A DNA stretch of 54,802 bases from an uncultured Spirochaetales bacterium (GTDB lineage: Bacteria; Spirochaetota; Spirochaetia; CAZAKE01): NCBI GenBank assembly GCA_964485495.1, contig CAZAKE010000005.1:8798-63599 (forward strand), in the 5' to 3' direction. Shown here in pieces: positions 494-28,284 of this stretch. The position numbers and the translations under genes were made by a program. Under the pieces are notes generated by a model. It was not told where the DNA came from, did no database searches, and saw only the letters and a program-made list of their open reading frames with translations. The stretch's first letter is position 1. Every line of letters starts with the position of its first letter.

Positions 494-580
494 TAGTTTT
501 CGGCGATTTTGCCGCCGTTCACCGAATTTCATCGCCTTTCGCTGGTTCGGGGTGAGAGAATACACTATTATTACAGTACC

Positions 581-2338
581 ATGCATGGTTCCGACTCACA
601 CGATACCAATGGCCTCTCTGAGCTCCGGGAGTCTCGAGACAAGGTACTCTCGGCTACGCTGGACAACACTCCCCTCGCTCTGGTGTTTTTCAAGGTCGAA
701 CAGGACAACATCGCAATACTCTACTGGAACGAGGCGGCACGTCGGATCTTCGGGTGGTCGAAGGAGGAGGTTCTCGGAAGGAACTTCTTCGAATTTCTGC
801 CGGCAGCGGATGCCGTCACAGGAGTCCGTGAGATTTTCGAAACCCTGGTTCGCGACAGGGATCCCCACAACATCACCCATCTCTGCAACACGAAGGCCGG
901 CAACACCAAGATGATCCAGTGGTTCAACAGCTCATTCATCTCGGAGAACGGCCGTACCATCTACGTTGTGTCTTTAGGACAGGACGTAACCGAACGGCTC
1001 TGGGCCGAACGCGCGCGCCGGCAATGGGGAACCGAACTCGAGGCAAGGGTAGCGGAGCGTACCGCGGAACTGGTTCGGGCAAACGAACTGCTGCAACTCG
1101 AGATAGAGCAACGCAAGAAGGTCGAAGAGGCACTGAGAGAGGCGAAGGCGGCGGCAGAAGAGGCCAACGAGGCAAAGAGCAGGTTCCTGGCGGGGATGAG
1201 CCACGAACTTCGTACTCCGCTGAACGGGATCATCGGGTTTTCCGACGTCCTGCGGAGCGGATCCGAAGAAGATATTCACCGGGACGGGAAGAAATACCTC
1301 GGGCATATCCACCAGTCGGGAAAGCATCTTCTGGCGTTGATCAACGACCTCCTGGACATGGCCAAGATAGAGGCCGGCAAGCTCCAGATCAACTGGGAAG
1401 TCCTGAGAGTGGACGAACTCGTCGATTCGGTCCTGCAGATGCTTTCCGGCCGTGTGATCGAGAAGGAGATCCACACCGACGTTTCGATAGATGCATCGGT
1501 TTCGGTCCGGGCCGACAGACGGCTGTTGCGACAGGTCCTGCTGAATCTTCTCTCCAACGCGGTGAAGTATTCGCCGCCTGGGGAGACGATCTCGATTCGT
1601 GTTTCCGACGGAGATTCCGACGGAGGAGCGGCAATGGTCCGCATAACGGTTTGTGACCGCGGTCCGGGGATTCCCGAAGAGCACAAGGAGCGTATCTTCT
1701 CCGAGTTCTACCAGATCGACCAGCCGCGGGATATCGGCCTCGGGGGTACGGGTTTGGGATTGGCCCTTTGCCGACACCTGGTCACCGAGCAGGGTGGTCG
1801 CATCGGCGTCGAGAATCTGGAGGGCGGCGGCAGCAGATTCTGGTTCACCATACCGGCCGCATCGGTGTCCGACCCGTCTGCAGACACTCCGGAGAAACAG
1901 AGTGAACACCGGGAAGGGGAAACACAGGAAGAAAAGCAGGAAGAAAAGCCGGGTGAAAAGAAAAGGAAGATCCTGGTCGCCGAAGACAATCCGGTCAACC
2001 GAGAGTTGATCACCGCCTTCATGAGCACAATCGGATACGATTTCACTATCGCCGAAAACGGTCGTGAAGCGGTTGCCCTTGCCGGGAAGTATCGACCCGA
2101 CCTGATCCTGATGGACATCATGATGCCCGTGATGGACGGATTCGAAGCAACCAGACAGCTGCGGGGAGCTCCCGAGACAGCGGAAATCCCCATCATCGCC
2201 CTCACCGCCGCGGTTGATGAGAAAGCCCGCGCGACGGCATTGGAAGCCGGGTGCGACCTCCATCTGCCGAAGCCGATCAACCTCAAAATTCTGAAGGAGG
2301 CCATCGAATCGCTGCTCTCGACCGAGTCAACCGGCTAA
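581..2338 (+). CDS. hybrid sensor histidine kinase (PAS - coiled coil - HisKA - HATPase_c - REC)
   Basis: H-box MSHELRTPLNGIIGFSDVL. HATPase N/G boxes (LLSNAVKYS, DRGPGI, GGTGLGLAL). C-terminal receiver KILVAEDNPVNRE...DLILMDIMMP with conserved Asp. The ORF track starts at a TTG (509); the first in-frame ATG is 581. Start uncertain. Confidence 0.85.
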   Translation: MHGSDSHDTNGLSELRESRDKVLSATLDNTPLALVFFKVEQDNIAILYWNEAARRIFGWSKEEVLGRNFFEFLPAADAVTGVREIFETLVRDRDPHNITHLCNTKAGNTKMIQWFNSSFISENGRTIYVVSLGQDVTERLWAERARRQWGTELEARVAERTAELVRANELLQLEIEQRKKVEEALREAKAAAEEANEAKSRFLAGMSHELRTPLNGIIGFSDVLRSGSEEDIHRDGKKYLGHIHQSGKHLLALINDLLDMAKIEAGKLQINWEVLRVDELVDSVLQMLSGRVIEKEIHTDVSIDASVSVRADRRLLRQVLLNLLSNAVKYSPPGETISIRVSDGDSDGGAAMVRITVCDRGPGIPEEHKERIFSEFYQIDQPRDIGLGGTGLGLALCRHLVTEQGGRIGVENLEGGGSRFWFTIPAASVSDPSADTPEKQSEHREGETQEEKQEEKPGEKKRKILVAEDNPVNRELITAFMSTIGYDFTIAENGREAVALAGKYRPDLILMDIMMPVMDGFEATRQLRGAPETAEIPIIALTAAVDEKARATALEAGCDLHLPKPINLKILKEAIESLLSTESTG

Positions 2339-3274
2339 ATTCGTCTTCAGTAGGGCCTGGGTCTCTGCAAGCGCTCGTGGGGTGTCTGTAGAATATCGGG
2401 AAACCTTCCGGTCGATGCGTTTCAGCAACCCGGTAAGGACGCTCTTCGGCCCAACTTCAACGAAGGTGTCGACACCGCGGCTCATCAGGTTCCGGATCGA
2501 CGCCGCCCACAGGACCGGCGAGGTAAGTTGGGCTACCAGGGAGTCGACGGTCCGATCGAAGGGAACCGCTTCTGCCGAGGCGTTTGCGATCACTACTCTA
2601 TCTCCAGGATTTCTCAGTCTCAGATGTTCCCGCAGGTACGTTTCGAGCTCCTTCGCCGCGGGCTCCATCAGGGGTGAGTGGAATGCGCCGCTCACCGAAA
2701 GCGGAAAGATCCGGCCGCCCTGCCCTTCGGCGATCTCGCAAGCCCGGGCCACCGCCTCCTTCGCTCCTGATATCACCACCTGCCCGGGGCAGTTGTAATT
2801 TACCGGCACCACGAGGCCAACTGCGGAAGCCTCCTCGCAGACGGCACGCACGGTCTCGTCGTCCAAGGCGATAATCGAGGCCATGGTCCCCCTCTCCTCC
2901 GGATCGGCCCCGGCCATCAGCAGGCCCCGGGTCCGCACCGCCCTGATCCCCGTTTCGAAATCGAAGTACCCGGCGGCATGGTACGCGCCGTATTCACCGA
3001 GCGAGTGTCCCGCCGTATAGGTGAACTCACCCGTCACCCCCGAGAGGACGTCGAAGAGCCCCGCACTCAACGCGAAGATTGCCGGCTGCGTGTTCTCGGT
3101 TTTGGCGAGTTCCTCCTCGGGCCCCTCCCAGCACAGACGTTTGAGATCGAAGCCGAGTATCTCGCCGCCCCGCTCCAGATATTCGGTGACCACGGGATAC
3201 TCCGCGGCGATCTCACGCCCCATGCCGACGAATTGGGACCCCTGTCCGGGAAACTGGAAACAGATAGTGTTCAT
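2327..3274 (-). CDS. fabD: malonyl CoA-acyl carrier protein transacylase
   Basis: MNTICFQFPGQGSQFVGMG...GHSLGEYGAYHAAG (GHSLG active-site serine motif)...HSPLM. The ORF-track N-terminal extension (3275-3550) overlaps the divergent gene and was rejected. ATG at 3274. 3' end converges with the kinase, overlapping by 12 nt. Confidence 0.9.
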   Translation of the reverse strand: MNTICFQFPGQGSQFVGMGREIAAEYPVVTEYLERGGEILGFDLKRLCWEGPEEELAKTENTQPAIFALSAGLFDVLSGVTGEFTYTAGHSLGEYGAYHAAGYFDFETGIRAVRTRGLLMAGADPEERGTMASIIALDDETVRAVCEEASAVGLVVPVNYNCPGQVVISGAKEAVARACEIAEGQGGRIFPLSVSGAFHSPLMEPAAKELETYLREHLRLRNPGDRVVIANASAEAVPFDRTVDSLVAQLTSPVLWAASIRNLMSRGVDTFVEVGPKSVLTGLLKRIDRKVSRYSTDTPRALAETQALLKTNLAG

Positions 3275-3365
3275 TCGGTTTCTCCACTGCAGAATTTCGC
3301 GGCATGGTACCGCCCACGACCGAAGGTGTAAAGCCTCTCGACACATACACCCGACCCGTGACATC

Positions 3366-4436
3366 ATGCACCCTATGGTAGCATTCATCAAGAAGAATTG
3401 GTTCCTTTTGGGTATCGTGTTGGCACTGGTTTTGGGATTCGCCTTCTCCGAGGCGGCGGTGACGCTCAATTCCGGCTCGCGGATCTCCACCGCGGTCGTG
3501 GTGATCATGTTCATCATCATGGGCCTCACCCTGCCCTCGGAAGCCCTCAAGGCCGGTCTGACCGACTACCGGCTGCACCTCTTCGTCCAGCTCTTCCAGT
3601 TCATCATTACGCCGCTCTTCTATTTTCTCATCACCATCCCCCTGGCGGGGGTGTTCGGGTATGAGATCCGCACGGGCATCCTGGCCCTTGCCTGCCTGCC
3701 GGCAACAATCTCGAGCTGTATCCTCTTCACGCAGCTCTCCGGGGGAAATGCCGTGGGGGCCATGTTCAACGCAGCGGTGGCCAATATCGCCGGGGTCTTC
3801 CTCTCGCCGCTGCTGCTCTCGCTGCTCCTGGGTCAGGCCGGTACGCCCATGCCGCCCGAGGAGGTGCTCAAGGTCCTGCGGAGCCTAACCCTCAAGATGC
3901 TGCTGCCCATCACCGCGGGGCAGGCCGCCCGGTTCCTGATCAGAGACTGGGCCATGCATCACAAGAAGAAACTCTCCACCGCCGGCAGCATCTGCATCCT
4001 GCTGGTGGTGCTCTTCTCCTTCGCCGAGACGGCGGGAGATCCTGAGTTCGTGGCCACCATCCCCAAGATGGTCCTCCCGTTCGGATTCCTGGCCGTCTCC
4101 TACCTGATCCTGGCGGGGATCTCCTTCGGCGGGACTCGTATCGCCGGTTTCTCGCGGGAGAACAGGATCGCCGCGCTGTTCGCCTCCACCCAGAAGACCC
4201 TGGCCATGGGAGTCCCCTTCGTGACCACCTACTTCGCGTCGCAGCCGGAGATCATCGGCACGGTCCTGCTCCCCATCATCTTCTACCACCCCTGGCAGCT
4301 CTTCATGGCCGGTATCTTCAACTCGCGCCTGACCGCGGCGAACCCCAAGGCGGAAGCTCCGGCCGCGGACACTTCTGTCGCGGAACCGTCGACCACCGTG
4401 ATAGAAAAGAGCGACGGAGGAACGAGCGATGAATAA
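3366..4436 (+). CDS. bile acid:sodium symporter (BASS) family membrane transporter
   Basis: About 10 predicted TM helices. Family-like segments ACLPATISSCILFTQLSGGN and AALFASTQKTLAMGVPF. The ORF-track start 3021 is inside fabD; the first plausible ATG is MHPMVAF at 3366. Confidence 0.65.
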   Translation: MHPMVAFIKKNWFLLGIVLALVLGFAFSEAAVTLNSGSRISTAVVVIMFIIMGLTLPSEALKAGLTDYRLHLFVQLFQFIITPLFYFLITIPLAGVFGYEIRTGILALACLPATISSCILFTQLSGGNAVGAMFNAAVANIAGVFLSPLLLSLLLGQAGTPMPPEEVLKVLRSLTLKMLLPITAGQAARFLIRDWAMHHKKKLSTAGSICILLVVLFSFAETAGDPEFVATIPKMVLPFGFLAVSYLILAGISFGGTRIAGFSRENRIAALFASTQKTLAMGVPFVTTYFASQPEIIGTVLLPIIFYHPWQLFMAGIFNSRLTAANPKAEAPAADTSVAEPSTTVIEKSDGGTSDE

Positions 4437-4582
4437 GGCCGCGGCCAACACCTTCGATCCGGCCCGGCCGGGGTGTGGTGGGGCGCAAGCGATCCGAGGG
4501 GTGACGGCTGTGCAATCGGACCGGCGGGCCTAGGCGGCGTGTAGGCCTGTCGAGAACATCCGCCGGTAAATCCTCCGGGACA

Positions 4583-7500
4583 TCAAGAGATGGTCTCGCC
4601 GGACCTCATCTCCCGAATCGCTTGGAGGAAGAGGCTCCGCTCATCTTCGGTGAAATCGAGCATCGGTTCAAGCCGGTTCAGAAACGGCTTCACGAAGTGC
4701 TCCATGCGGGAACTTCGCCGTTCATATTCGGTGCGGTGATCGAGCATCATGACCGTCACCGGCTGGGGAGACCAGTATTGACCGATGCTCTGGAACCCGA
4801 GCTTCTCGTACATGGCCACATGCCTGACCTCATCCGAAAACACATCCATGAAGATCCGTTCCGCGTCCTTGGCCTTCGCAAATAGATATGCCAGCGTCAT
4901 GAGCCCCAGCGGGATGATGCCTCCGCGCTCCTCCCGCATGACCGCCAACCGGTCTATCTCGACGCAGCGTTTCCCGGTAGAGAGCCCGTTCAGGCGAAAG
5001 TGCCGCTCTATGGGAAAATGGTCGCCGTCGTTCGGCGCGATACACGAGACGGTACCCACCGGCTGGAGCCCTCGGTACGCCAGGATGTGATAGGCGGATT
5101 CGTCCTCACTCCTCCGGATTGTCTCCTCGAGGTACCCCTTCTCGCCTACGAGTATCTTGCGCTGGAGAAAGAAGACGTCCTCCCACCTGGCCGGATCCGC
5201 GGCATGGATGAACCGTATCTTCGCCTTGCCCGTCTCCGTCAGCGGCAGGAGGATCTCGAACTCGGTGCCGAAGCCGAAGTCGCTCTTCGCGTTGATGCGC
5301 CCCCCCATCCCATACACGAGTTGGTGAGTGATCGACAATCCCAGCCCGGTTCCCTTGCCCGGTTCCTTGGTCGTGAAGAACGGGTTGAACACCTTTTCCA
5401 GATTCTCCTTCTCGATTCCATGACCCGTATCCCGGATATGCACAACCGCGTTGGAGTCCCGGGTGGTACAGCGCAGGGTGAGAGTCCCATGGCCGCTCAT
5501 CGCCTGGACCGCGTTCATGATGATGTTCAGGAACACCTGCCGCAGTTCGCCCGCGTTGGCCTCGAACCGGGGCATGTGGTCATACTCGGTTCGTACCGTG
5601 ATGCCGTCGAAATCCATTCCCCGCTTTGCCAGCTTGAGACAGTCCTCCATCACCTCGACGATGTCCACCGAGTCATGACCTCGCTGCTCCCTCCTCGAGT
5701 AGGCGTTTAGATCCTGGATCACGTCGGCCGCGGCTTCGGAATAGCGGATGATGTCGCTGGTATATTCGAACAGCGGGGAGTCCGCGGGGACACTCTCGAG
5801 CATGATCTCCGCGGTCCCCATGATGCCTCCGAGGGGGTTGTTGATCTCATGGGCGATCCCGGAGGCCAGGGTGCCGATGCCGGCCAATTTTTCCGACTGA
5901 ATCAGGTCCTCCTGCAGCCGCTTCTGCTTGGTGATGTCCTGGAAGAACTCCAGGAAGATCCGCTCCTCTCCTACCGGCATGCTGATGGGGTAGAAACTGA
6001 TCGAGTAGATCGACTTCGCCTCCGGGGCGGACAGCTCCGAGGAGAAGGTTAACCCGGTGTGCAGGCAGTCCTGGGCCTGGCAGGTGTCGCAGGGCCTGGC
6101 CCTGCCGAAGAACATCTTGTAACACTTCCGGCCCACCATGTTCTCGTAGGAAGACCCGAAGTAGCGAGTGGCGGCGTAGTTGACCGTGACGATGTTGTAG
6201 TTGATGTCCTGGATCGAGATCGGCGTGGTGATTCCGTTGAAGAACGCCTCCAGCTTGTTGCGGCTGATGGTAAGGTCGGTATTGAGCCGCTGCAACCGCT
6301 TCTGCTGTCGCTTCAACCGTTCGAAGGAGATGGCGTTCTCCAGGGAGACCGAACACTGGCCGGCAAGTATCTCCAGGGTCTCTATATCGTACTGGTTGTA
6401 GAAATCCTTGTCCACACACAGGCTCAGGGCGATGCCGCCGTTTACCCGCTCCTTGAAGGTCAACGGGATAATCAGACCAGCCCTGAGCCGCAGGGAGGTC
6501 CCGGGTACATCGATGTGAATCTCCTCCCCGGTGTTCTGTGCGACGATCAGGTCGCGGTCGATGGTCAGATACTCGGTAAACTCCGCGCCTCGGCTGAATT
6601 CGATACTCTCCATGACCACCGGCGAGAGGTTGAGCCCACGCTCGGTGACGAGGCGAAAACTCCGCCTGCTGTAATCCTGGACCACCAGAAAGCCCCACTC
6701 CAGGCTGAACGTGTCCATGATCTTCTCGATGGTCAACTCCGCCAGCCGGTCCAGGTCCACCAGGGAGGTCAAGCTGGACGAGAAATTACGAAGATTGCGG
6801 TGGTAGTCGAAGTGACGGCCGAAATAGAGCCGTTCCATGACGGAGAGGGTTCCCTTGCGAAGGGGCTGAAAGATCACCGCCGCAACCACCCCCAGGAACA
6901 GGGAGGGGACGAACGAGGAGTCGAAGGGGACCTGGATCGACAGGGTCGAGGAGATCCAGATGACCCCGTAGAAGATCATCGCGCTGATCACCACCAGCAC
7001 GAAATACATGATCGCCCGCAGCACGAGGGTGGAGTAATTCACCAATCGGTACTTGTATATGGAGAAGAAGATGAGGATGGCGTTGATCGTCGCGGCGAAC
7101 AGATCGATAGGATACCGCCCGACCGGCTCATAGACGTTGGCCAGTACGCCGACCAACATGATGCACGCCCCGTACAGGGGTGGAAAGAGCCGTTTCCTGG
7201 TGAGAATCGACTGATTCCGTCTGAGTTCGAGAGCCAGAAGATACACCCCCAGGATCAGAAACAGATAACTCAGGGAGTAGGCGATGGGAGCACCCTTCCC
7301 CAGGGTATAATAGAAATTGTGTCCCTCGAACCAGACGTCGGTGACGATGGTCCCGCGGACATTCAGGTAGACCAGAAATCCGTAGATCACATATCCTACG
7401 ACGATCTGCACCGTGTATCTGAGTTTCCTAGAATCCAGTAGATCAACCATGGAATGGAAGATGGTGATGGGCCCGCCGAACAGGCCGATCACCATGAACC

Positions 7501-7702
7501 GATTCCAGAAGAGCGGCGTCAGAACCCCGGTGTTGGCATGCATCATGAACGAGCCGAAGCTCCAGGTTGCCATCGCCGACATATACAACAGGAAGGAGAG
7601 CTTAACCGTCACCTTCTGTCGTCCGCTGAAGCCGAAGACGACGAAGGCGATATAGAGGATGAACGCAATCGCCGGAATTATAGAAGACAGATCGAGTACC
7701 AC
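4583..7702 (-). CDS. multidomain sensor histidine kinase: N-terminal 7TM receptor domain - GAF - PAS (Cys4 motif) - HisKA - HATPase_c - C-terminal GNAT-like N-acyltransferase domain
   Basis: About 7 N-terminal TM helices. H-box [20 protein letters not shown]. HATPase boxes ([26 protein letters not shown]). C-terminal ~215 aa: [21 protein letters not shown]...[10 protein letters not shown], resembling the acyl-CoA/N-acyl-amino-acid-synthase type GNAT fold. Cys motif [20 protein letters not shown]. Confidence 0.8.
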
Positions 7703-7774
7703 AAAAGCCCTTCTTCAGTGCAAAAAATGGAGTTGGCAACGAGGACGGTTCTATAATACCATGGGAACCGGAAT

Positions 7775-8335
7775 ATGTGGTGTACAACTTTTGCTGCAGC
7801 CATCGGTTTTCTATCCCTGGGAGTGTATGATATCGCTCAGATCGGCGGATGGAGCCGCGTGGGCCGGCTCTTTTCCATTATCGGGTACGGTACAATAGTT
7901 TCTTCACTCATTTTTCATCTGATTCGCTCCCATCCTCCCGGCAGCCCTGTGCCGATCGTAATAGTCGGGTTCATCCTCGCCGCGGTGTGTCTCATAACCC
8001 TCGCATACACCGTACTCTTCGAAGTAGGACGACGGTCGTGCCGAGACAAACCGAAGGGCCCGAGGAGGGCGTATCGGCACGGATCGTACGGCGTCGTACG
8101 GCATCCCGGGTTCTGGTGGTACCTGTCACTGTGTGCCGCCCTGGGCACCGCGTATGGAACCGTAGACGTGGGAGCGTTTCTCGGCCTCACGGTGGTGATG
8201 AATTATCTTCTGATCCTGCTCGAGGACAGATGCCTCTTTCCACGCATCTTCGTCGATTACGACGACTATCGCCGGGTAGTCCCCTTTCTGATTCCGAGAA
8301 AAACGCCGAAGAAGAGAGTATGGCCAACATCTTAG
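7775..8335 (+). CDS. membrane methyltransferase, isoprenylcysteine carboxyl / phospholipid methyltransferase (ICMT/PEMT) family
   Basis: Multi-TM protein with GSYGVVRHPGFWWY (RHPxY motif of ICMT/PEMT family) and C-terminal LED...P. 3' end overlaps the next gene by 16 nt. Confidence 0.5.
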   Translation: MWCTTFAAAIGFLSLGVYDIAQIGGWSRVGRLFSIIGYGTIVSSLIFHLIRSHPPGSPVPIVIVGFILAAVCLITLAYTVLFEVGRRSCRDKPKGPRRAYRHGSYGVVRHPGFWWYLSLCAALGTAYGTVDVGAFLGLTVVMNYLLILLEDRCLFPRIFVDYDDYRRVVPFLIPRKTPKKRVWPTS

Positions 8336-9381
8336 TCGTCGACGATGAGGAGGCGATCCGGAAGACCACCAGAATCAACCTGGAAAGCTCCGGTTTCACC
8401 GTACACACCGCCGAAAACGGACGCGATGCCATGACGGTTCTCGCGCCGAACTATCTACCCGTGAAAATAGACTGCATCCTCCTGGACATCCGCATGCCGG
8501 GAATCAACGGCATGGACCTCTTAAAGGAGATCCATCTGATGGACGCTCGCATCCCCGTCGTGATGATGACGGCCATGAACGATCTGGAGACGGGCCTCGA
8601 TGCCATGCGATCCGGCGCCTTCGACTATGTGACGAAACCGGTCCGCAAGCAACGGCTGCTCACGGCACTGGAGCGGGCCTTGAAGTATCGACACATCCAG
8701 ATGGAGAATCAACGGCTCGAACAGGAGAACGCCGAATACCAGCGTTCACTGGAGATCAAGGTCCAGGAACGCACCCGGGAACTGATCGAGGCGTACAAGA
8801 AACTGCAGAGGCACACCATGGAGACGGTCAAGGTACTGGCGGAGACGATAGAGGCGAAGGATCACTACACCAGGGGACACTGCAACCGGGTACGGCAGCT
8901 GTCCAGGGAACTGGCGGGAAGGGCCGGCGTGAATACCGAACGCCTCGAGACCGTCGAGTACGGCGCCCTCCTCCATGACATCGGGAAGATCGGCATCCCC
9001 GAGGCGCTGCTCCTGAAAAACGGGACCCTCACCGATGACGAACTCGTGAGTTTCAGGCTTCATCCGGTGATCGGCGAGAAGATCCTCCGGAACGTGGCCT
9101 TCTTCGAGCCGTGTCTCAGCATCGTACGGCAACACCACGAACGGTACGACGGCAACGGCTACCCCGACGGTCTGCGGGGCGATGAGATCGATATCCTCTC
9201 GCGGGTGGTCACCATCGCCGACTCCTATGACGCTATGACCTCGACGCGTCCCTATCGCCGGGCGCTTCCCATCCACCACGCCCTGGCGGAACTCGATGCC
9301 GGCGCCGGCAGCCAATTCGACGCCGAACTGGTCCGCTTGTTCGTGCGGTGGGAGATCTACACGACGGCCGGCCCGATATAA
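8320..9381 (+). CDS. response regulator with HD-GYP phosphodiesterase domain (RpfG-like)
   Basis: MANILVVDDEEAIRK...LLDIRMPGINGMDLL (REC). Then HD-GYP: HYTRGHCNRV...LLHDIGKIGIP...HHERYDGNGYP. The ORF-track upstream extension (7849) was rejected; ATG at 8320. Confidence 0.88.
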   Translation: MANILVVDDEEAIRKTTRINLESSGFTVHTAENGRDAMTVLAPNYLPVKIDCILLDIRMPGINGMDLLKEIHLMDARIPVVMMTAMNDLETGLDAMRSGAFDYVTKPVRKQRLLTALERALKYRHIQMENQRLEQENAEYQRSLEIKVQERTRELIEAYKKLQRHTMETVKVLAETIEAKDHYTRGHCNRVRQLSRELAGRAGVNTERLETVEYGALLHDIGKIGIPEALLLKNGTLTDDELVSFRLHPVIGEKILRNVAFFEPCLSIVRQHHERYDGNGYPDGLRGDEIDILSRVVTIADSYDAMTSTRPYRRALPIHHALAELDAGAGSQFDAELVRLFVRWEIYTTAGPI

Positions 9382-9476
9382 CTAGCTGGTTTCAATCTGC
9401 CGTTGCTCTCGGTGATTCCATAGAGAATTTTGTTTTTCCCTCCATAGATAGTATTTTTACACACAAGGAGAATACT

Positions 9477-9881
9477 ATGCATACGAACACGACAACCCAT
9501 ATCCGCCGGTCGGTAGCGGCGTGTGTACTCATCGTGCTGCTAGCGGTCGCAGCCGTCGCCGGCGGCAGGGGAGAAGAGAGCCCATACGACACATATGCGG
9601 ACCTTGCAGAATTGATCGCGTCCGATACCGAGTATCATCTCGTCGACGTCAGGACGCCGGCCGAATACGCTGCGGGACACATTCCCGGAGCGGAGAATAT
9701 CAACGTCGATATCATCGCATCGAATCCACCGACCGAAGACAAAGACGCGCTGATAATCGTATACTGTCGCAGCGGTAATCGCTCGGGAGACGCGAAACGA
9801 ATGCTCGAAGACCTCGGGTACACCAATGTTCACGATTTCGGAGGCATTTACCGCTGGGAGGGAGAGGTAATCACCGAATAA
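9477..9881 (+). CDS. secreted single-domain rhodanese (sulfurtransferase) protein
   Basis: AAGGAG SD 6 nt upstream of ATG. Signal peptide RRSVAACVLIVLLAVAAVAG. HLVDVRTPAEYAAGHIPGAENI...VYCRSGNRSG (active-site Cys loop CRSGxRS). Confidence 0.8.
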   Translation: MHTNTTTHIRRSVAACVLIVLLAVAAVAGGRGEESPYDTYADLAELIASDTEYHLVDVRTPAEYAAGHIPGAENINVDIIASNPPTEDKDALIIVYCRSGNRSGDAKRMLEDLGYTNVHDFGGIYRWEGEVITE

Positions 9882-10050: not shown

Positions 10051-10722
10051 ATGAACCTTCTGCTCCTGGAGGACGACGACGGGATAGCCGAATTCGTCGA
10101 GAAGGGGTTGCGGGAGGCGGGGTTCGCCGTCGAGAGGGTCGGGAGTGCCGAGGACGCACTTCCGCTCTGTTCGGAAGGCGGCTTCGATGTCGCCGTCGTC
10201 GATATCATGCTGCCGGGGATGGACGGTCTCACCTTCATTGAGACCATCCGGCGTCATGGGGTCTCGATGCCGATCCTCATCCTGAGTGCCCGGCAGACGG
10301 TTGACGACAGGGTGAAGGGCCTTCGGGCGGGCGGCGACGACTATCTTACCAAGCCGTTCGCGTTTACCGAGCTCCTCGCCAGAATACAGGCCCTCCTCCG
10401 CAGATCCGGCGGCGTGGTATCGGCAACGACACTGTCCGCGGACGACCTTACGGTGGACCTGCTGACGCGAGAGGTCACCCGGAACGGAAAGCCGATCGAA
10501 CTCCAACCCCGGGAGTTCTCGCTGCTCGAATACCTGCTCAGGAACAAGGGGCAGGTTCTGCCCAAGACCATGATCATGGAGCACGTCTGGGGGTACGATT
10601 TCGATCCACAGACCAACGTCGTCGACGTGCTGGTCTCCAGACTCCGCTCGAAGATCGATCGGGGATTCGAGAAGAAGCTGATCCAAACCGTACGCGGCGT
10701 CGGCTACGCCCTCAAAGGGTGA
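10051..10722 (+). CDS. OmpR-family winged-helix response regulator
   Basis: MNLLLLEDDDGIAEF...VAVVDIMLPGMDG (REC). C-terminal trans_reg_C LTxREFSLLEYLLRNKGQVLPKTMIMEHVWGYDFDPQTNVVDVLVSRLRSKID. Confidence 0.9.
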   Translation: MNLLLLEDDDGIAEFVEKGLREAGFAVERVGSAEDALPLCSEGGFDVAVVDIMLPGMDGLTFIETIRRHGVSMPILILSARQTVDDRVKGLRAGGDDYLTKPFAFTELLARIQALLRRSGGVVSATTLSADDLTVDLLTREVTRNGKPIELQPREFSLLEYLLRNKGQVLPKTMIMEHVWGYDFDPQTNVVDVLVSRLRSKIDRGFEKKLIQTVRGVGYALKG

Positions 10723-12203
10723 GTGTTGTGAGAGTGGTTGCCGGGCCGTGTTGCCGAACCGCATCCGGGGGGGCTCCCCGTCCCTCTCCCCCACCCGGTG
10801 TGATCGGGAGATTCACCGGGAAGATCAGTATCCGTTTTGCCTTCGTGTTCACGCTGATGTTCCTCCTGTTTGCCCTGATCCTCTACTGGGGCACCTTTCT
10901 GACCCTTTACCGGGGATTGAGCCTCAACGATCACGAAGAACGACAGCTGCGGATGCTGCAGATCTGGGCCAGGTTCCAGGCGGGAGGGATCGGGCTCCTG
11001 CAGTTGGAGGCCGAGGCGAGCCGCATGGGCCTCGGCGAACAGCCCTACGCCTTCAGGGTCGCCGATTCGCGGAACAGGACGGTCCTGCTACGATATCCGG
11101 AACATTGGGCCGTCTTCGACTTCGACTCTCTGGAAAACGCCCCCAGAGGTCAGGGGCTGCTGGTGCTCTCGTCGCAGGACCGGGGATACGACCTCGAATT
11201 TGCACTCCTTCCTCTATCACAGGAGTATACCCTCCAGGTCGGCACCAGTACGGAGCATCGGGAACGGCTGTTGAAGGTATACAGGAAGAATTTCCTGCTC
11301 ATCGTCGCATTCCTCGTGCCCGTGTGTATCGGGCTGGGGATACTCCTGGCCTCCCGATCGGTTCGGGTCCTCAAGCAGGTCAACCTGGCGGTGGATCGGA
11401 TCATCGACACCGGTGACATGAGTGGACGAATTCCCACCCGCGGAACCGGAGACGAGTTGGACGAACTGGCGATGCGGTTCAATCGGATGCTCGATCGTAT
11501 CGAGACCCTCATCGCCGGAATGAAGGGAACCCTGGATACTGTGGCCCACGACCTCAGGACGCCCCTGGCCCGGTTTCGTGGCAACGCCGAACGTGCGCTC
11601 AAAGGCGGTGATGATGCGGAGTCCCTCGAGTCGGCCCTGGCGTCCGGCATGGAGGAATCGGATCATATCCTGCGGCTGCTGAATACGCTGATGGACATCA
11701 CGGCGGCGGAGACGGGGGTCATGCATCTCGACTCCCAGCCGCTGCGGCTGCGGCGCCTCGCGGAAGAGGTGATCGACGTCTATTCCTACGCCGCCGAGGA
11801 GCACGATGTGGCGCTGGAGCTGTCCGCGGGCGAAGATCCGACGGTTACCGGTGACCCTGTACGGCTCAGGCAGGCGGTTGGAAACCTGATCGACAACGCG
11901 GTGAAGTATTCGCCGGCGGGGTCGACGGTAACGGTGTCACTCGCGATAGACCGTGAGGAATCGAACGGCGTACTGCGGGTACGGGACCGGGGACCCGGGA
12001 TCACCGGGGATGATCTCCCTCACATCTGGGACCGCCTCTACCGCGGCAGCGGCGGTGCGAAGAACCCGGGGCTTGGCCTGGGGCTCAGCCTGGTCAAGGC
12101 GATCGTGGAGGCCCATGAAGGTACCGTCGAGGTCACCGATTCGAGTCCCGCCGGCACAGAGATAACCATGCTCCTGCCCTTGTCGAGTATTACAAAAATG
12201 TAA
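10719..12203 (+). CDS. sensor histidine kinase (2 TM, HAMP, HisKA, HATPase_c), partner of upstream OmpR-type regulator
   Basis: GTGA 4-nt overlap with the RR stop (translational coupling). HAMP then H-box VAHDLRTPLARFRG. N/G boxes NLIDNAVKYSP, DRGPGI, GLGLSLV. Exact start uncertain (GTG 10719, GTG 10800 or a later ATG). Confidence 0.85.
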   Translation: MSVVRVVAGPCCRTASGGAPRPSPPPGVIGRFTGKISIRFAFVFTLMFLLFALILYWGTFLTLYRGLSLNDHEERQLRMLQIWARFQAGGIGLLQLEAEASRMGLGEQPYAFRVADSRNRTVLLRYPEHWAVFDFDSLENAPRGQGLLVLSSQDRGYDLEFALLPLSQEYTLQVGTSTEHRERLLKVYRKNFLLIVAFLVPVCIGLGILLASRSVRVLKQVNLAVDRIIDTGDMSGRIPTRGTGDELDELAMRFNRMLDRIETLIAGMKGTLDTVAHDLRTPLARFRGNAERALKGGDDAESLESALASGMEESDHILRLLNTLMDITAAETGVMHLDSQPLRLRRLAEEVIDVYSYAAEEHDVALELSAGEDPTVTGDPVRLRQAVGNLIDNAVKYSPAGSTVTVSLAIDREESNGVLRVRDRGPGITGDDLPHIWDRLYRGSGGAKNPGLGLGLSLVKAIVEAHEGTVEVTDSSPAGTEITMLLPLSSITKM

Positions 12204-23311: not shown

Positions 23312-25237
23312 ATGAGCGACTTCGGAAGCGCGAATGAAAAGTGTACCGTCAGTGATTGCCCCTACCGGAAAGTCGTGGAGGATTTGGAAGAGCGGTGTGA
23401 GCGGATGCGCCATACTATCCGCACGATCCACGATAGGGTCTCTCCGATGGGTCACGACCTGCAGCACAACATCGACAGCTATCAGTCCCTGGCCGAGACG
23501 TCGACTGACGCGATCCTGCAGATAAACCAGGAGATGCAGATCACCTTCGTCAATTCGGCGGCCGAGCGCATGTTCAACTACAAACGGCAGGAGCTGATCG
23601 GCGAGACATTCAGCACCATATTTCCCTCGGCGGTCTATCAACGCTATCACACCCTGTTCGCCAAGTACTTCGTCATCGACGAACAACACCGGGACATGAG
23701 CGGCATGCAGAACACCATCGAGGTACTCGGGATCACCAGAGATTCCAACGTCTTCCCCATGGAGATCTCATTCGGAAACTCGAAGACGGTGCAACGGAAT
23801 CCGCGGGTCACCTGTATCCTGCGGGATATCACTCAGCGGAAGATTATCGAACGAAAACTACGGTATTTGGCGTATCACGACCGGCTCACCGACCTGGGTA
23901 ACCGGGACCTGTTCTTCGAATCCATCGAGGAGACCATCAAACGGGTGAAACGGGACGGCGGCAGGAAATCCGCGGTGATGTTCCTGGACCTCGACGGGTT
24001 CAAGTCGGTGAACGATACCCTCGGACACGCCATGGGAGACCGGGTGCTGCAGGAGTGTTCCAGACGGCTCGAGGGCTGCCTGCGCGAAAGCGATCATATC
24101 TTCCGGTTCGACGACCGGATGAACATGCCCGACAATATCAACGAGGACCTCTTCCGTTTCGGCGGAGACGAGTTCGTGGTGCTCCTCCCCTATATCAAGA
24201 AGCCGTCGGACGCCGCCACGGTGGCTCGCAAGATAATCAAGGCGATCCGCCAGCCCTTCATCGTATCGGAGGAGGCGGATTCTCGGAATATCAAGATCGG
24301 CGTGAGTATCGGAATAGCGGTGACTCCGGAGGACGGAATGACCGCCCGAAAGCTCATCACCAGCGCAGACGTCGCCATGTACAAGGCCAAGGAGGTGGGC
24401 AACCACTACGTCTTCTTCAACAAGACGATGAACCGCCGGATGATGGCGAAGCTCCAATTCGAACAGAGCCTCTCCGACGCGATGCTCGAGGAAGCCCTTC
24501 GTCTCCACTTCCAACCGATCATCGACGAGCGGGGCCGGGCGGTAGGCGCCGAGGCCCTCCTGCGATGGTTCCCAGAAGATTCGGAAGAGATATCCCCGGA
24601 AATTTTCATCCCCTTCGCGGAGGAGACCGGTCTGATCGTAGACATCGGCGACTGGGTACTGGAACGGGCCTGCCGCAGCCTCGGCGACTGGGAACGAAAC
24701 GGGCTGAAGGATTTTTTCGTCTCGGTCAATATCTCGCCGAAGCAGTTTCGCTCGCACGACTTCGTCGAGCGGATCTGCTCCACCATCAATCGGGTGGGTA
24801 TCAACCCGGGAAAGTTGAAACTCGAGGTCACGGAAGGCAGCATCATGGATGATCCGGTCGATGCCATTCGTAAGATGGAACTGATAAAGGAGATGAATCC
24901 GGGGCTTCGCTTCGCCATCGACGATTTCGGCACCGGATACTCCTCGCTGAGCCATCTATCGAATTTTCCGGCGGACATTCTCAAGATCGACAAGTCCTTC
25001 GTCATGTCAATAGACCGACGCAACAATGCAAAGATCGTGAAAACGATCATCGACCTGGCGGACAGTCTGGGACTGGGCGTCGTGGCCGAGGGCGTGGAGA
25101 CGAACGAGCAGGCCCAATTCCTCCTCAGGCGGGGATGCAGGTTTTTGCAGGGATTTCTCTTCTCGGAACCGGTCCCCCACGACGCGGTACCCGAGTTCGC
25201 CAAGAATACCTCGGGGCTCCTCTGTTCGGTGCCATAA
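23312..25237 (+). CDS. PAS-GGDEF-EAL protein (diguanylate cyclase/phosphodiesterase)
   Basis: PAS (ETSTDAILQIN...). GGDEF with RFGGDEF. EAL with EALLRW, DDFGTGYSSL, conserved EGVE/QG motifs. Confidence 0.9.
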   Translation: MSDFGSANEKCTVSDCPYRKVVEDLEERCERMRHTIRTIHDRVSPMGHDLQHNIDSYQSLAETSTDAILQINQEMQITFVNSAAERMFNYKRQELIGETFSTIFPSAVYQRYHTLFAKYFVIDEQHRDMSGMQNTIEVLGITRDSNVFPMEISFGNSKTVQRNPRVTCILRDITQRKIIERKLRYLAYHDRLTDLGNRDLFFESIEETIKRVKRDGGRKSAVMFLDLDGFKSVNDTLGHAMGDRVLQECSRRLEGCLRESDHIFRFDDRMNMPDNINEDLFRFGGDEFVVLLPYIKKPSDAATVARKIIKAIRQPFIVSEEADSRNIKIGVSIGIAVTPEDGMTARKLITSADVAMYKAKEVGNHYVFFNKTMNRRMMAKLQFEQSLSDAMLEEALRLHFQPIIDERGRAVGAEALLRWFPEDSEEISPEIFIPFAEETGLIVDIGDWVLERACRSLGDWERNGLKDFFVSVNISPKQFRSHDFVERICSTINRVGINPGKLKLEVTEGSIMDDPVDAIRKMELIKEMNPGLRFAIDDFGTGYSSLSHLSNFPADILKIDKSFVMSIDRRNNAKIVKTIIDLADSLGLGVVAEGVETNEQAQFLLRRGCRFLQGFLFSEPVPHDAVPEFAKNTSGLLCSVP

Positions 25238-27437: not shown

Positions 27438-28264
27438 CGATGGGTAGAGACCAGATACCCGACTATGACTGGGAACGGTTGTCCCTGGATGAGTTGCCCG
27501 ACGGGCGGCTCGAAGAGATCCGGCGGCATCCCGAATTCGATACACAACGATCCGCGGCCATGTCCCGGATCCGGCAATCCGATGCCGAACTGCTCGAACG
27601 CTACCCGGCTGATGTGATGGCCACCCGGATCAGGGAACGAATGCAGGTCGAAGAGGTGCGAAACGAAGGGACGCCGGCCTCGGGGGGAAGCATCCTCCGG
27701 ACGGTGGTGGGAAATCCCCGCCTCGCGGCGGGCGTGGCGGCCCTGCTGCTGATTGCCGTCGGAATCATGCCCCTGATGTGGCTGAATACCCCGGTCACGC
27801 CGGAGCGGCAGCCGGAGAGCACCCGCATCAAGGGGCTGAAACCGGATATCCGTATCTATCGCGAGCAGGGCGGAGATCCGGAACTCCTGCATGAGAATGA
27901 CCTGGTGAGAGAGAACGACCTCCTGCAGATCGGCTATGTCTCGGGAGGATGGAAACACGGCGCCATCTTCTCCATCGACGGAAACGGTGCGGTGACCCTG
28001 CACTACCCGGCCGATATCTTCTCTACGACACACTTGTCTCCGGAGGGAGAGATCAAACTCCCCTACTCCTATCAACTCGATAGCGCACCGGAGTTCGAAC
28101 GGTTCTTTTTTGTGCTCTCGGACAAGGAATTCTCCGTGAACGAGATACTATTATACGCGGAGGAGTTGGTCGAATCACGCAGCGTGCGCTCTATCCGCTC
28201 CTTGAGTCTGCCCCGAGGGTACGAGCAGGCTTCTATCGTCTTGAAGAAGGGGGCGTCGGAGTGA
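27434..28264 (+). CDS. transmembrane anti-sigma factor (cognate to upstream ECF sigma)
   Basis: ATGA overlap with the sigma stop. Cytoplasmic N-terminal anti-sigma segment. Single TM LAAGVAALLLIAVGIMPLMW. Periplasmic C-terminal domain. Confidence 0.75.
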   Translation: MTMGRDQIPDYDWERLSLDELPDGRLEEIRRHPEFDTQRSAAMSRIRQSDAELLERYPADVMATRIRERMQVEEVRNEGTPASGGSILRTVVGNPRLAAGVAALLLIAVGIMPLMWLNTPVTPERQPESTRIKGLKPDIRIYREQGGDPELLHENDLVRENDLLQIGYVSGGWKHGAIFSIDGNGAVTLHYPADIFSTTHLSPEGEIKLPYSYQLDSAPEFERFFFVLSDKEFSVNEILLYAEELVESRSVRSIRSLSLPRGYEQASIVLKKGASE

Positions 28265-28284
28265 ACCACCCAACGAACGGGAAA

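What the first reader, a model, noticed from the sequence alone, without database searches (positions are those of the whole stretch)
4583..7702. Giant 7TM-GAF-PAS histidine kinase fused to a C-terminal GNAT-like N-acyltransferase domain, with a Cys4 motif in the PAS region
After a complete HisKA/HATPase_c core (ending ...[10 protein letters not shown]), the protein continues for about 215 residues. Motifs [21 protein letters not shown] and [10 protein letters not shown] suggest an acyl-CoA-dependent N-acyltransferase fold. This resembles N-acyl amino-acid synthase / autoinducer-synthase-like GNATs rather than a receiver domain. A histidine kinase that also carries an acyltransferase could couple sensing to production of an acylated signal or to acylation of a target. 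I do not know this as a described architecture. Separately, the PAS-like segment carries C-x10-C-x2-C-x4-C ([20 protein letters not shown]), which could be a metal/Fe-S or redox-sensing site. The N-terminal 7TM module implies a membrane-embedded ligand sensor.
Basis: partly seen in the sequence, partly recalled or inferred. Interest (0 to 1): 0.6.

Follow-up and report, generated by a model that had tools for sequence, protein, structure and literature searches.

The report
Sensor kinase fused to acyltransferase
A membrane sensor kinase conserved in many uncultured spirochaetes carries a lipid-type acyltransferase domain on its tail and sits in a fixed three-gene module with a c-di-GMP-degrading regulator, an arrangement I found described in no paper and with no known function.

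Summary

The fusion is not an artefact. 121 full-length members (47-61% identical; the named ones are all Spirochaetota) keep it. E915, R918, R926, Y965 and K967 of the GNAT domain are invariant. They are intact even in the one member whose kinase motifs have decayed.

The "Cys4" motif is really Cys3. C527, C538 and C541 are 121/121, but the fourth Cys is Ser in 32/121. D545 and H548 are nearly invariant.

The gene belongs to a conserved module. Divergently transcribed from it are a small ICMT-like membrane protein and a REC-HD-GYP response regulator. Anchoring on the small gene recovers the kinase in 47/51 loci and the regulator in 51/58.

The most likely mechanism is a two-output sensor: phosphotransfer to the c-di-GMP phosphodiesterase, plus a gated acyl transfer to an unknown amine. 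Donor, acceptor and PAS cofactor are untested. I found no publication on this architecture. I rate it a new variant of known kinds, interest 0.6.

The parts
4583..7702 (-). Whole gene: a 1039-aa sensor histidine kinase with a C-terminal GNAT domain. GTG start at 7702, stop at 4583-4585.
6818..7702 (-). N-terminal membrane sensor, residues 1-295. Pfam HisKA_7TM covers 13-222. The model predicts about 8-9 helices. Invariant polar residues sit in the helices (W47, S51, H55, W66, N67, N189, Y197, P198, D200, N207).
   Evidence: 46.9 bits; invariant columns; helices H5-26 ... H279-294
6338..6757 (-). GAF-like domain, residues 316-455. It is the least conserved part of the protein.
   Evidence: GAF 22.4 bits, equal to the cutoff; GAF_2 below its cutoff; alpha/beta secondary structure consistent with GAF; mean pairwise identity 0.44
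5918..6259 (-). PAS domain, residues 482-595.
   Evidence: PAS_9 27.9 bits, PAS_4 25.4 bits; mean pairwise identity 0.63
6059..6124 (-). Conserved Cys3 (+Asp/His) site inside the PAS domain: C527-x10-C538-x2-C541-x3-D545-[C/S]546-x-H548.
   Evidence: C527/C538/C541 121/121; D545 120/121; C546 89 Cys and 32 Ser; H548 114/121; among 87 sequences, 86 loci plus the window, the motif occurs only in the orthologues
5684..5872 (-). HisKA (DHp) domain, residues 611-673, with the phospho-acceptor His618 in the sequence AHEINNPL.
   Evidence: (H618 120/121)
5237..5551 (-). HATPase_c catalytic domain, residues 718-822. The N box, G1 box, G2 box and the FNPFFTTK motif are intact.
   Evidence: 83.8 bits; N726, N730, D758, G760, G762, G784, G786, G788 each 120/121
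4733..5218 (-). GNAT-fold acyltransferase core of the FeeM class, residues 829-990. It is joined to the kinase catalytic domain by a linker of about 8 residues.
   Evidence: FeeM 42.1 bits against 27; AF2 pLDDT 87.8; FeeM, YjcF, SACOL1063 and AHL synthases as neighbours; E915, R918, R926, Y965, K967 121/121
4586..4732 (-). Two extra C-terminal helices after the GNAT core, residues 991-1039, with the conserved motif [13 protein letters not shown].
   Evidence: helices at 183-200 and 205-220 of the fragment; Y993, F1003, V1004, R1010, L1011 at 94% or more
7775..8335 (+). Divergently transcribed gene for a 186-aa membrane protein, ICMT/DUF1295-like, with the motifs GxYxxxRHPGF and EDxxxFxxxFxxYxxY. 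It is the partner most tightly linked to the kinase gene.
   Evidence: Ma-ICMT 4a2n, E 0.018; kinase found divergently upstream in 47/51 loci
8320..9381 (+). REC-HD-GYP response regulator, 353 aa. Its start overlaps the end of the small gene by 16 nt. It is the presumed cognate regulator and a c-di-GMP phosphodiesterase.
   Evidence: acceptor Asp in ILLDIRMPG; HDIGK; HHERYDGNGYP; directly downstream of the small gene in 51/58 loci

Best explanation
This is a conserved, membrane-anchored sensor histidine kinase; every member that carries a source name is from Spirochaetota. It carries a second, enzymatic output.

Inputs. There are two candidate input sites. One is a polytopic HisKA_7TM module with invariant polar residues inside the membrane. 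The other is a cytoplasmic PAS domain with an invariant Cys3 (+Asp545/His548) site, which most likely holds a metal or an Fe-S cluster.

Output 1. The input sites control an intact HisKA/HATPase_c core. His618 is autophosphorylated, and the phosphoryl group passes to the REC-HD-GYP regulator encoded next door. That changes c-di-GMP hydrolysis.

Output 2. A FeeM/LuxI-class GNAT acyltransferase is tethered to the ATP-binding domain by about 8 residues. The same conformational switch probably gates it. It would transfer an acyl group from a thioester donor (acyl-ACP or acyl-CoA) to an amine acceptor near the membrane. The acceptor is more likely a small molecule or lipid than a protein. The conserved ICMT-like membrane protein may act on the product.

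Shown here: the domain composition, the fold, the conservation of catalytic-type residues and the three-gene synteny. Inferred: phosphotransfer, the gating, the donor, the acceptor and the cofactor.
For: 1. Architecture and fold.
2. 121 full-length members keep the fusion. The mean pairwise identity of the GNAT core is 0.61, against 0.55 for the kinase catalytic domain and 0.52 for the 7TM region.
3. GNAT residues E915, R918, R926, Y965 and K967 are 121/121. E915/R918 align with the strand beta-4 E/R pair of the AHL synthase BjaI. Y965-x-K-x-G-F is the usual GNAT motif B (established knowledge).
4. P0135 is the only one of the 121 members that departs at the kinase positions scored (H618 and the N, G1 and G2 boxes; identified). 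It keeps all the GNAT invariants, so the GNAT domain is under selection independently of the kinase.
5. The nearest non-kinase relatives of this GNAT clade sit C-terminal to input domains (REC-FeeM P0148, PilZ-FeeM P0164), which is the position of an output domain; P0224 combines a cNMP-binding domain with a FeeM-like domain (Pfam list only, order not checked).
6. The kinase boxes are intact in 120/121 members.
7. The REC-HD-GYP gene is adjacent in 8/9 orthologous loci, and in 51/58 loci anchored independently on the small gene. The kinase is present in 47/51 such loci. Every kinase found there carries the GNAT domain, 39/39.
8. The regulator has a canonical acceptor Asp and canonical HD and GYP motifs.
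9. Precedents exist for signalling domains that control a fused GNAT. PixB is PilZ-PilZ-GNAT (PMC8316039), and that paper also cites the cAMP-regulated mycobacterial acetyltransferase.
Against: - There is no biochemical evidence of any kind.
- The canonical CoA pyrophosphate loop Q/R-x-x-G-x-G/A is not met. The sequence is R926-G-S-I-I-P, with I/L at position 4 and Pro at position 6. Donor binding is therefore uncertain.
- Sequence profiles rank the uncharacterised CoA-binding GNATs SACOL1063 and YjcF above FeeM. The FeeM-like chemistry is therefore a class assignment, not a substrate prediction.
- The Arg of the N-terminal helix motif shared by LuxI, FeeM and YjcF is Gln847 here, with Arg848 shifted by one position.
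- The regulator gene is missing in one orthologous locus (L007), and the small gene in another (L001).
- In the full-length AF2 model the PAS Cys loop has low confidence (pLDDT 51-62). No coordinates were available to test whether the ligands cluster.
Confidence: 0.5

Rival explanations
1. The GNAT domain is a protein lysine or N-terminal acetyltransferase. It would modify a signalling or motility protein (the partner regulator, a CheY-like protein, or the kinase itself) using acetyl-CoA. Phosphorylation and acetylation would then be issued by one sensor.
For: - The top sequence-profile and Foldseek hits include the CoA-bound SACOL1063, YjcF and the Naa30/Naa50 N-terminal acetyltransferases.
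- The motif B Tyr965 is invariant.
- PixB, a PilZ-PilZ-GNAT protein, controls motility reversals through its acetyltransferase domain (PMC8316039).
- The module is tied to c-di-GMP signalling.
Against: - The canonical acetyl-CoA P-loop is absent.
- Pfam FeeM scores higher than Acetyltransf_1, 42.1 against 30.1 bits.
- The tightly linked partner is a membrane ICMT-like protein, which suggests a lipidic small-molecule substrate.
Confidence: 0.2
2. The GNAT domain is an input or allosteric module, a pseudo-enzyme or slow enzyme. It would bind acyl-CoA, acyl-ACP or acetyl-CoA and report metabolic or lipid status to the neighbouring ATP-binding domain, tuning kinase activity.
For: - The linker to the catalytic domain is very short, about 8 residues.
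- The CoA loop is non-canonical.
- The two extra conserved C-terminal helices could pack on the kinase core.
Against: - Catalytic-type residues are strictly invariant: E915, R918 and Y965 are each 121/121.
- The GNAT domain is retained intact in the member whose kinase has degenerated (P0135), so it is not merely a regulator of the kinase.
- In related proteins the domain sits C-terminal to input domains (REC in P0148, PilZ in P0164), which is the output position.
Confidence: 0.15
3. The fusion is an artefact: two adjacent genes, a kinase and a stand-alone GNAT, joined by a sequencing, assembly or gene-calling error. Alternatively, the tail is a degenerate REC or HPt domain.
For: A few database entries show the GNAT part as a separate 190-305 aa protein (P0006, P0008, P0010).
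Against: - Those entries lie in long-read contigs where neighbouring genes are also broken into fragments, and the ORFs overlap as frameshifts do.
- 121 full-length members from many independent assemblies have one continuous frame.
- There are no REC or HPt hits, and the model is a confident GNAT fold.
Confidence: 0.02

Closest known systems
FeeM and other N-acyl amino acid synthases (Pfam PF21926; PDB 2g0b; Van Wagoner & Clardy 2006, cited in PMC7293339)
   Same: - The Pfam family match is above the gathering score.
- A conserved Glu sits on strand beta-4.
- Both lack the canonical acetyl-CoA loop.
   Different: - FeeM is a stand-alone soluble enzyme. Here the domain is the C-terminus of a membrane kinase and has two extra helices.
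- Identity is only 18%.
- Sequence profiles score SACOL1063/YjcF and the AHL synthase BjaI higher than FeeM.
- The acyl-ACP donor and the amino-acid acceptor are untested.
- There is no PEP-CTERM/exosortase context of the kind reported for such synthases (Craig et al. 2011, cited in PMC7293339).
LuxI-type acyl-homoserine-lactone synthases (BjaI 5w8a, RpaI 6wn0, LasI 1ro5, TofI 3p2h)
   Same: - The strand beta-4 E-x-x-R pair aligns, 'vEisrLav' with BjaI 'WEWSRYFV'.
- The N-terminal helix motif is related.
   Different: - Pfam Autoind_synth does not appear at E<=1.
- The Trp of the N-terminal motif is Tyr857, and the Arg is Gln847/Arg848.
- Nothing indicates SAM binding or lactonisation.
Signalling-domain-GNAT fusions: Myxococcus xanthus PixB (PilZ-PilZ-GNAT) and the cAMP-regulated mycobacterial acetyltransferase (both via PMC8316039)
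   Same: A sensory or regulatory module is covalently fused N-terminal to a GNAT effector. In PixB the acetyltransferase domain is required for control of motility, and there is a link to c-di-GMP. The closest non-kinase relatives of this GNAT clade include PilZ-, REC- and cNMP-domain fusions.
   Different: Here the regulatory part is a complete transmembrane histidine kinase that also has its own regulator. Homology between the PixB GNAT domain and this clade was not tested.
NreB-type PAS domains that bind Fe-S clusters (B. licheniformis CX2CX11C [2Fe-2S]; S. carnosus CX2CX11CX2C [4Fe-4S]; PMC13478379)
   Same: A kinase PAS domain with three strictly conserved, closely spaced Cys residues. 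A three-Cys cluster site with a non-Cys fourth ligand has a direct precedent.
   Different: - The order of the spacing is reversed (C-x10-C-x2-C).
- Asp545 and His548 are conserved as possible fourth ligands.
- The PAS sequence matches no solved PAS domain.
- Zn binding or disulfide chemistry is equally possible.
Ralstonia Phc quorum sensing: the methyltransferase PhcB makes methyl 3-hydroxymyristate, which the kinase PhcS senses (PMC8578825)
   Same: A lipid-tailed methyl ester signal made with a methyltransferase and read by a membrane histidine kinase. It is the nearest analogue of the speculative GNAT + ICMT-like + 7TM circuit.
   Different: There is no homology. In Phc the synthase and the sensor are separate proteins. 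The resemblance is one of circuit logic only and is untested here.

Membership tests
Two-component sensor histidine kinase (HisKA + HATPase_c) | Phospho-acceptor His in the H-box of a HisKA/DHp domain | tested here: met
   HisKA 46.4 bits against a cutoff of 26.9. H618 in AHEINNPL is His in 120/121 members.
Two-component sensor histidine kinase (HisKA + HATPase_c) | ATP-binding domain with N, G1, F and G2 boxes | tested here: met
   HATPase_c 83.8 bits. N726, N730, D758, G760, G762, G784, G786 and G788 are each 120/121, and FNPFFTTK is conserved.
Two-component sensor histidine kinase (HisKA + HATPase_c) | Phosphotransfer to a cognate receiver domain | not testable with these tools
   Only synteny is available. 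REC-HD-GYP is adjacent in 8/9 orthologous loci and in 51/58 loci anchored on the small gene.
GNAT superfamily | GNAT alpha/beta fold | tested here: met
   [not shown]
GNAT superfamily | Canonical acetyl-CoA pyrophosphate-binding loop Q/R-x-x-G-x-G/A after strand beta-4 | tested here: not met
   The sequence is R926-G-[S/G]-[I/L]-[I/V]-P. Position 4 is I/L and position 6 is Pro in 112/121 members.
GNAT superfamily | Motif B Tyr (general acid) in Y-x-K/x-x-G-F | tested here: met
   Y965 and K967 are 121/121, G969 is 119/121 and F970 is 117/121. The catalytic role is inferred from established knowledge of GNATs.
FeeM / N-acyl amino acid synthase (PF21926) | Match to the family profile above Pfam's gathering score | tested here: met
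   42.1 bits against 27, residues 864-975. All 120 listed orthologues but three (P0136-P0138, two of them truncated) carry PF21926 in the precomputed column.
FeeM / N-acyl amino acid synthase (PF21926) | Closest solved structure is FeeM | tested here: met
   [not shown]
FeeM / N-acyl amino acid synthase (PF21926) | Catalytic Glu on strand beta-4 (Glu95 in FeeM, recalled from memory) | tested here: inconclusive
   E915 is invariant and aligns with the Glu of BjaI 'WEWSRY'. A residue-level alignment to FeeM itself was not obtained.
FeeM / N-acyl amino acid synthase (PF21926) | Acyl-ACP donor and amino-acid acceptor giving an N-acyl amino acid | not testable with these tools
   This needs enzymology or metabolite analysis.
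LuxI-type AHL synthase (Autoind_synth) | Match to the family profile, and the N-terminal R-x3-F-x5-W motif | tested here: not met
   Autoind_synth does not appear at E<=1. The motif Arg aligns with Gln847, and the Trp with Tyr857.
NreB-type Fe-S PAS sensor | CX2CX11C(X2C) motif in a PAS domain homologous to NreB | tested here: not met
   The motif here is C-x10-C-x2-C. No solved PAS sequence matches at E<=1. Cluster binding itself cannot be tested here.
XrtA/PEP-CTERM kinase PrsK (TIGR02916) | Score above the NCBIfam cutoff | tested here: not met
   91.5 bits against a cutoff of 300, and only over the generic kinase core. The nearest non-GNAT relatives are AtoS-like kinases with NtrC-type regulators.
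HD-GYP response regulator (RpfG-like), neighbouring gene 8320-9381 | REC domain with acceptor Asp, plus an HD_5 domain with HD and GYP motifs | tested here: met
   Response_reg 102 bits and HD_5 129 bits. ILLDIRMPG, HDIGK and HHERYDGNGYP are present.
ICMT/PEMT/DUF1295 membrane methyltransferase class, neighbouring gene 7775-8335 | Family profile match, and the SAM-site motifs RHPxY and EExxLxxxFGxxYxxY | tested here: inconclusive
   The window copy has no Pfam hit. Orthologues hit DUF1295 (27.1 bits against 20.4) and ICMT (best E 2.4e-4, 3/5 members). The profile against the PDB finds Ma-ICMT 4a2n at only E 0.018, but with both motifs aligned.

The most novel reading that the evidence does not exclude
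The three genes form a self-contained lipid-signal circuit. The kinase-tethered FeeM-like domain makes an N-acyl amino acid at the membrane. That product has a lipid tail and a free carboxylate, like the N-acetyl-S-farnesyl-cysteine substrate of ICMT. The ICMT-like partner methyl-esterifies it into a neutral, diffusible molecule. The 7TM module of the same kinase senses that molecule, and the HD-GYP regulator converts the signal into a drop in c-di-GMP. This would be a quorum-sensing-type loop in which synthase and receptor are one polypeptide. The Cys3 PAS site would gate synthesis by redox or sulfide status.
Probability: 0.1. Interest if true: 0.85.

Novelty: new variant of a known kind. Interest (0 to 1): 0.6.

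Why it matters
Histidine kinases are normally thought to have one output, phosphotransfer. A kinase that carries a conserved acyltransferase, apparently catalytic, would be a sensor that writes two chemically different signals at once.

The fixed partnership with an HD-GYP phosphodiesterase ties this to c-di-GMP control, which governs motility and biofilm formation in spirochaetes. The fixed partnership with an ICMT-like membrane enzyme hints at a lipid-like product.

The same GNAT clade recurs behind REC and PilZ domains and together with a cNMP-binding domain, so it may be a general, unrecognised output domain of bacterial signalling.

The invariant Cys3 PAS site adds a candidate new metal or Fe-S sensor type. 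All four parts can be expressed and assayed directly, so the questions are testable now.

Tried and rejected
Only one true orthologue was recovered (L007, Spirochaetaceae UBA6089), so no species census was possible.
2. A link to the PEP-CTERM/exosortase system (PrsK kinase plus N-acyl amino acid synthases) is rejected. PrsK scores 91.5 against a cutoff of 300. The nearest non-GNAT kinases are AtoS-like with NtrC-type regulators. Among the 20 largest ORFs of the rest of the window scanned with Pfam, none is an exosortase or PEP-CTERM gene.
3. Naturally split kinase and GNAT genes are rejected. P0006, P0008 and P0010 lie in long-read contigs with many frameshifted genes.
4. NCBIfam has no specific family for the tail or for the whole protein.
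5. The PAS segment searched against PDB sequences gave no hit at E<=1.
6. The profile search with alignment A3 in the word-indexed database added little: one cNMP-FeeM fusion and small GNATs.
7. The full-length AF2 model has low confidence in the Cys loop and gives no coordinates, so ligand geometry could not be checked.
8. The afdb50 fold library was unavailable.
9. Literature searches for kinase-GNAT or FeeM fusions found nothing relevant. One of them was poorly chosen, because 'FeeM' matches many unrelated words.
10. The promoter and terminator scan of 4300-8000 found no more than shuffled sequence gives.
Full report
**1. Checking the observation**

Window 4583-7702 is one open reading frame on the minus strand. 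It has a GTG start at 7702 and encodes 1039 aa. [10 protein letters not shown] closes the kinase catalytic domain at residues 814-823, and 216 residues follow it. The Cys string [20 protein letters not shown] is residues 527-546, nt 6059-6124.

Pfam gives these matches:
- HisKA_7TM, residues 13-222, 46.9 bits.
- A weak GAF, residues 316-455, at or below threshold.
- PAS_9 and PAS_4, residues 494-595.
- HisKA, residues 611-673.
- HATPase_c, residues 718-822.
- FeeM (PF21926, N-acyl amino acid synthase), residues 864-975, 42.1 bits against a gathering score of 27.
- Acetyltransf_1, 30.1 bits.

No REC or HPt match appears. NCBIfam has no specific family for the whole protein or for the tail.

**2. 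The fusion is real and conserved**

A full-length search returned 157 clusters at E<=1e-30. The 120 listed are nearly all about 1040 aa long, 47-61% identical, and almost all carry the same Pfam set including PF21926. Every source name is from Spirochaetota: Spirochaetia, Spirochaetales, Rectinemataceae, Alkalispirochaeta and Sediminispirochaetaceae. The machine names are 'GNAT family N-acetyltransferase' or 'histidine kinase'.

A few entries show the tail as a separate gene (P0006, P0008, P0010). They lie in long-read contigs whose neighbouring genes are also broken into overlapping fragments, so they are frameshift artefacts.

I aligned 121 full-length members. The mean pairwise identity of the GNAT core is 0.61. 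That compares with 0.55 for the kinase catalytic domain, 0.52 for the 7TM region and 0.44 for GAF.

**3. The kinase part**

H618 in AHEINNPL and the N, G1 and G2 box residues are each conserved in 120/121 members. The single exception at these positions is P0135, identified from the alignment. It has lost the His and the ATP-binding boxes but keeps every invariant GNAT residue. The acyltransferase domain is therefore under selection independently of kinase activity.

The N-terminal region is predicted as about 8-9 helices. It has invariant polar residues inside them (W47, S51, H55, W66, N67, N189, Y197, P198, D200, N207). That pattern is what one expects of a ligand site within the membrane. 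This last point is an inference.

**4. The C-terminal domain**

An AF2 model of residues 815-1039, built on a 60-sequence alignment, is confident (pLDDT 87.8, pTM 0.86). It shows a GNAT core followed by two extra helices.

Structural neighbours:
- Foldseek puts SACOL1063 and FeeM together at the top.

Sequence profiles:
- A profile of the wider clade hits SACOL1063 (3e-17), YjcF (5e-13), the AHL synthase BjaI (2e-9) and FeeM (8e-7).
- A profile of the more LuxI-like members hits BjaI best (7e-13). It aligns 'vEisrLav' with BjaI 'WEWSRYFV', so E915 and R918 correspond to the strand beta-4 Glu/Arg pair of that family.

Conservation: E915, R918, R926 and the motif B residues Y965 and K967 are 121/121.

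Two features depart from textbook GNATs and LuxI enzymes.
- The acetyl-CoA pyrophosphate loop Q/R-x-x-G-x-G/A is replaced by R-G-S-I-I-P.
- The Arg of the N-terminal helix motif aligns with an invariant Gln847, with Arg848 next to it.

My conclusion is that this is a GNAT of the FeeM/LuxI/YjcF neighbourhood that looks catalytically competent. Its acyl donor and acceptor cannot be read from the sequence.

**5. What the relatives say**

An exhaustive HMMER scan of 1.84 billion cluster representatives with the tail found only 80 proteins at E<=1e-3. Beyond the kinase fusions, these are:
- stand-alone FeeM-like proteins of 190-200 aa;
- a REC-FeeM protein (P0148);
- a PilZ-FeeM protein (P0164);
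- a PAP2_C-FeeM-aminotransferase protein (P0212);
- a protein with cNMP-binding and FeeM-like domains (P0224; Pfam list only, domain order not checked).

In P0148 and P0164 the clade sits C-terminal to an input domain, which is the position of an output domain.

Published precedents for this logic are PixB of Myxococcus xanthus and the cAMP-regulated mycobacterial acetyltransferase, both described or cited in PMC8316039. PixB is PilZ-PilZ-GNAT, and its acetyltransferase domain is required for control of motility.

**6. Genomic context**

The kinase gene is transcribed divergently from two overlapping genes. The gap to the first is 72 nt.
- A 186-aa membrane protein at 7775-8335.
- A REC-HD-GYP response regulator at 8320-9381. 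It has a canonical acceptor Asp and the motifs HDIGK and HHERYDGNGYP.

Among ten distinct orthologous loci, the small gene is present in 9 (absent in L001). The regulator is present in 8 of the 9 loci that can be evaluated (absent in L007). The outer flanks differ between loci.

As an independent test I scanned metagenome contigs with the small protein as the anchor, which gave 79 loci.
- The kinase lies divergently upstream in 47/51 loci with enough flank (median gap 67 nt).
- Every one of those kinases with enough sequence carries the GNAT domain (39/39). That is 39/43 counting four distant paralogues that have no kinase.
- The REC-HD-GYP gene follows directly in 51/58 loci.

The small protein has the conserved motifs G-x-Y-x3-RHPGF and E-D-x3-F-x3-F-x2-Y-x2-Y. 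Orthologues hit Pfam DUF1295 (above threshold) and ICMT (3/5 members, weak). A profile finds the 194-aa archaeal ICMT 4a2n at a marginal E of 0.018, with both motifs aligned. I treat 'ICMT-like membrane methyltransferase' as a lead, not as an established assignment.

**7. The PAS Cys site**

C527, C538 and C541 are 121/121, D545 is 120/121 and H548 is 114/121. The conserved unit is therefore C-x10-C-x2-C-x3-D-x2-H, not Cys4.

Among the 87 sequences held at that point (86 loci plus the window), the motif occurs only in the orthologues. The PAS sequence matches no solved structure. AF2 models this loop with low confidence, pLDDT 51-62. That is compatible with a loop that depends on a cofactor but proves nothing.

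Precedents for Fe-S clusters in kinase PAS domains exist. B. licheniformis NreB holds a [2Fe-2S] cluster on three Cys residues (CX2CX11C) plus a labile sulfur ligand. S. carnosus NreB holds a [4Fe-4S] cluster on CX2CX11CX2C (PMC13478379). The spacing here runs in the reverse order, so this is not an NreB homologue. Zn binding or thiol redox chemistry remain open.

**8. Most likely mechanism (confidence about 0.5)**

The protein is a two-output sensor.
- Signals at the 7TM module and at the Cys3 PAS site set the state of the kinase dimer.
- His618 phosphorylates the neighbouring REC-HD-GYP regulator, which changes c-di-GMP hydrolysis.
- The GNAT domain hangs on the ATP-binding domain by about 8 residues. 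The same movement probably gates it, and it acylates an amine near the membrane.
- The ICMT-like partner may process the product.

Shown: the domains, the fold, residue conservation and synteny. Inferred: phosphotransfer, gating, chemistry and cofactor.

Rivals:
- a protein acetyltransferase acting on signalling or motility proteins (0.2);
- a ligand-binding input or pseudo-enzyme (0.15);
- an artefact (0.02; refuted).

The most novel reading not excluded (about 0.1) is a self-contained circuit. The tethered synthase and the ICMT-like enzyme would make an N-acyl amino acid methyl ester, which the same kinase senses. This is analogous in logic to the Ralstonia system in which PhcB makes methyl 3-hydroxymyristate and PhcS senses it (PMC8578825).

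**9. Comparison with known systems, and novelty**

The protein is a bona fide HisKA/HATPase_c kinase and a bona fide GNAT-fold protein. It passes the Pfam FeeM threshold but fails the canonical acetyl-CoA loop. It is not a LuxI-family member, not PrsK and not NreB.

The components are known. What has no description in any paper I could find is the combination: a histidine kinase with a C-terminal FeeM-class acyltransferase, locked in a module with an ICMT-like protein and an HD-GYP regulator. The sequences are already numerous in public databases under generic names.

I rate it a new variant of a known kind, with interest 0.6. The rest of the window is ordinary chromosome: SecDF, GroEL, a PAS-GGDEF-EAL protein, MnmA, Asd, ArgG, PGI, PFK and others.

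Noticed in passing
protein P0135 (orthologue, 1047 aa): This is the only one of 121 members with a degenerate kinase. H618 is Arg, and the N, G1 and G2 boxes are lost. It still keeps all invariant GNAT residues and the Cys3 site, so the acyltransferase is maintained without kinase activity.
   Followed up: partly
proteins P0148, P0164, P0224, P0212 (relatives of the GNAT tail): The same FeeM-like GNAT clade occurs as REC-FeeM, PilZ-FeeM, together with a cNMP-binding domain (P0224; order not checked), and PAP2_C-FeeM-aminotransferase fusions. This suggests a general signalling output domain. Taxa and genomic contexts were not determined.
   Followed up: partly
L007 1-5000 and L001 6713-8001: The module is not absolute. 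The Spirochaetaceae UBA6089 locus keeps the kinase and the small gene but has lost the REC-HD-GYP gene. It is otherwise syntenic with L006 (ADSL, ExbB, ExbD). L001 keeps the regulator but lacks the small gene.
   Followed up: yes
window 9348-9881 (+): A rhodanese-domain ORF overlaps the end of the HD-GYP regulator gene. It could hint at a sulfur link to the Cys3 PAS site, but it is not conserved next to the module in the other loci.
   Followed up: partly
window 2327-3550 (-) and 3021-4436 (+): An Acyl_transf_1 (FabD-like acyl transferase) ORF and an SBF-like transporter lie just downstream of the kinase gene, convergent with it. The two long ORFs overlap, so their true starts must be shorter. 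Neither is conserved in the other loci.
   Followed up: partly
window 509-2338 (+), 10719-12203 (+), 23312-25237 (+): The window is rich in signalling genes. It holds a hybrid PAS-HisKA-HATPase-REC kinase, a HAMP kinase and a PAS-GGDEF-EAL protein.
   Followed up: no
window 28261-30927 (+): An 888-aa protein has an N-terminal caspase-like Peptidase_C14 domain (residues 46-272). The remaining roughly 600 residues have no Pfam match at E<=1e-5.
   Followed up: no
L087, L088, L089 (ENA long-read contigs): These assemblies carry many frameshift-split genes: the regulator in two pieces, the phosphonate-binding protein in three, the kinase in several. Such contigs seed spurious 'stand-alone' protein entries in the protein database.
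   Followed up: yes
L134, L148, L150, L167, L132, L138: These loci carry distant paralogues of the small ICMT-like protein (24-38% identical) with no kinase-GNAT gene nearby. Two come from human gut metagenomes. Their contexts were not examined.
   Followed up: no
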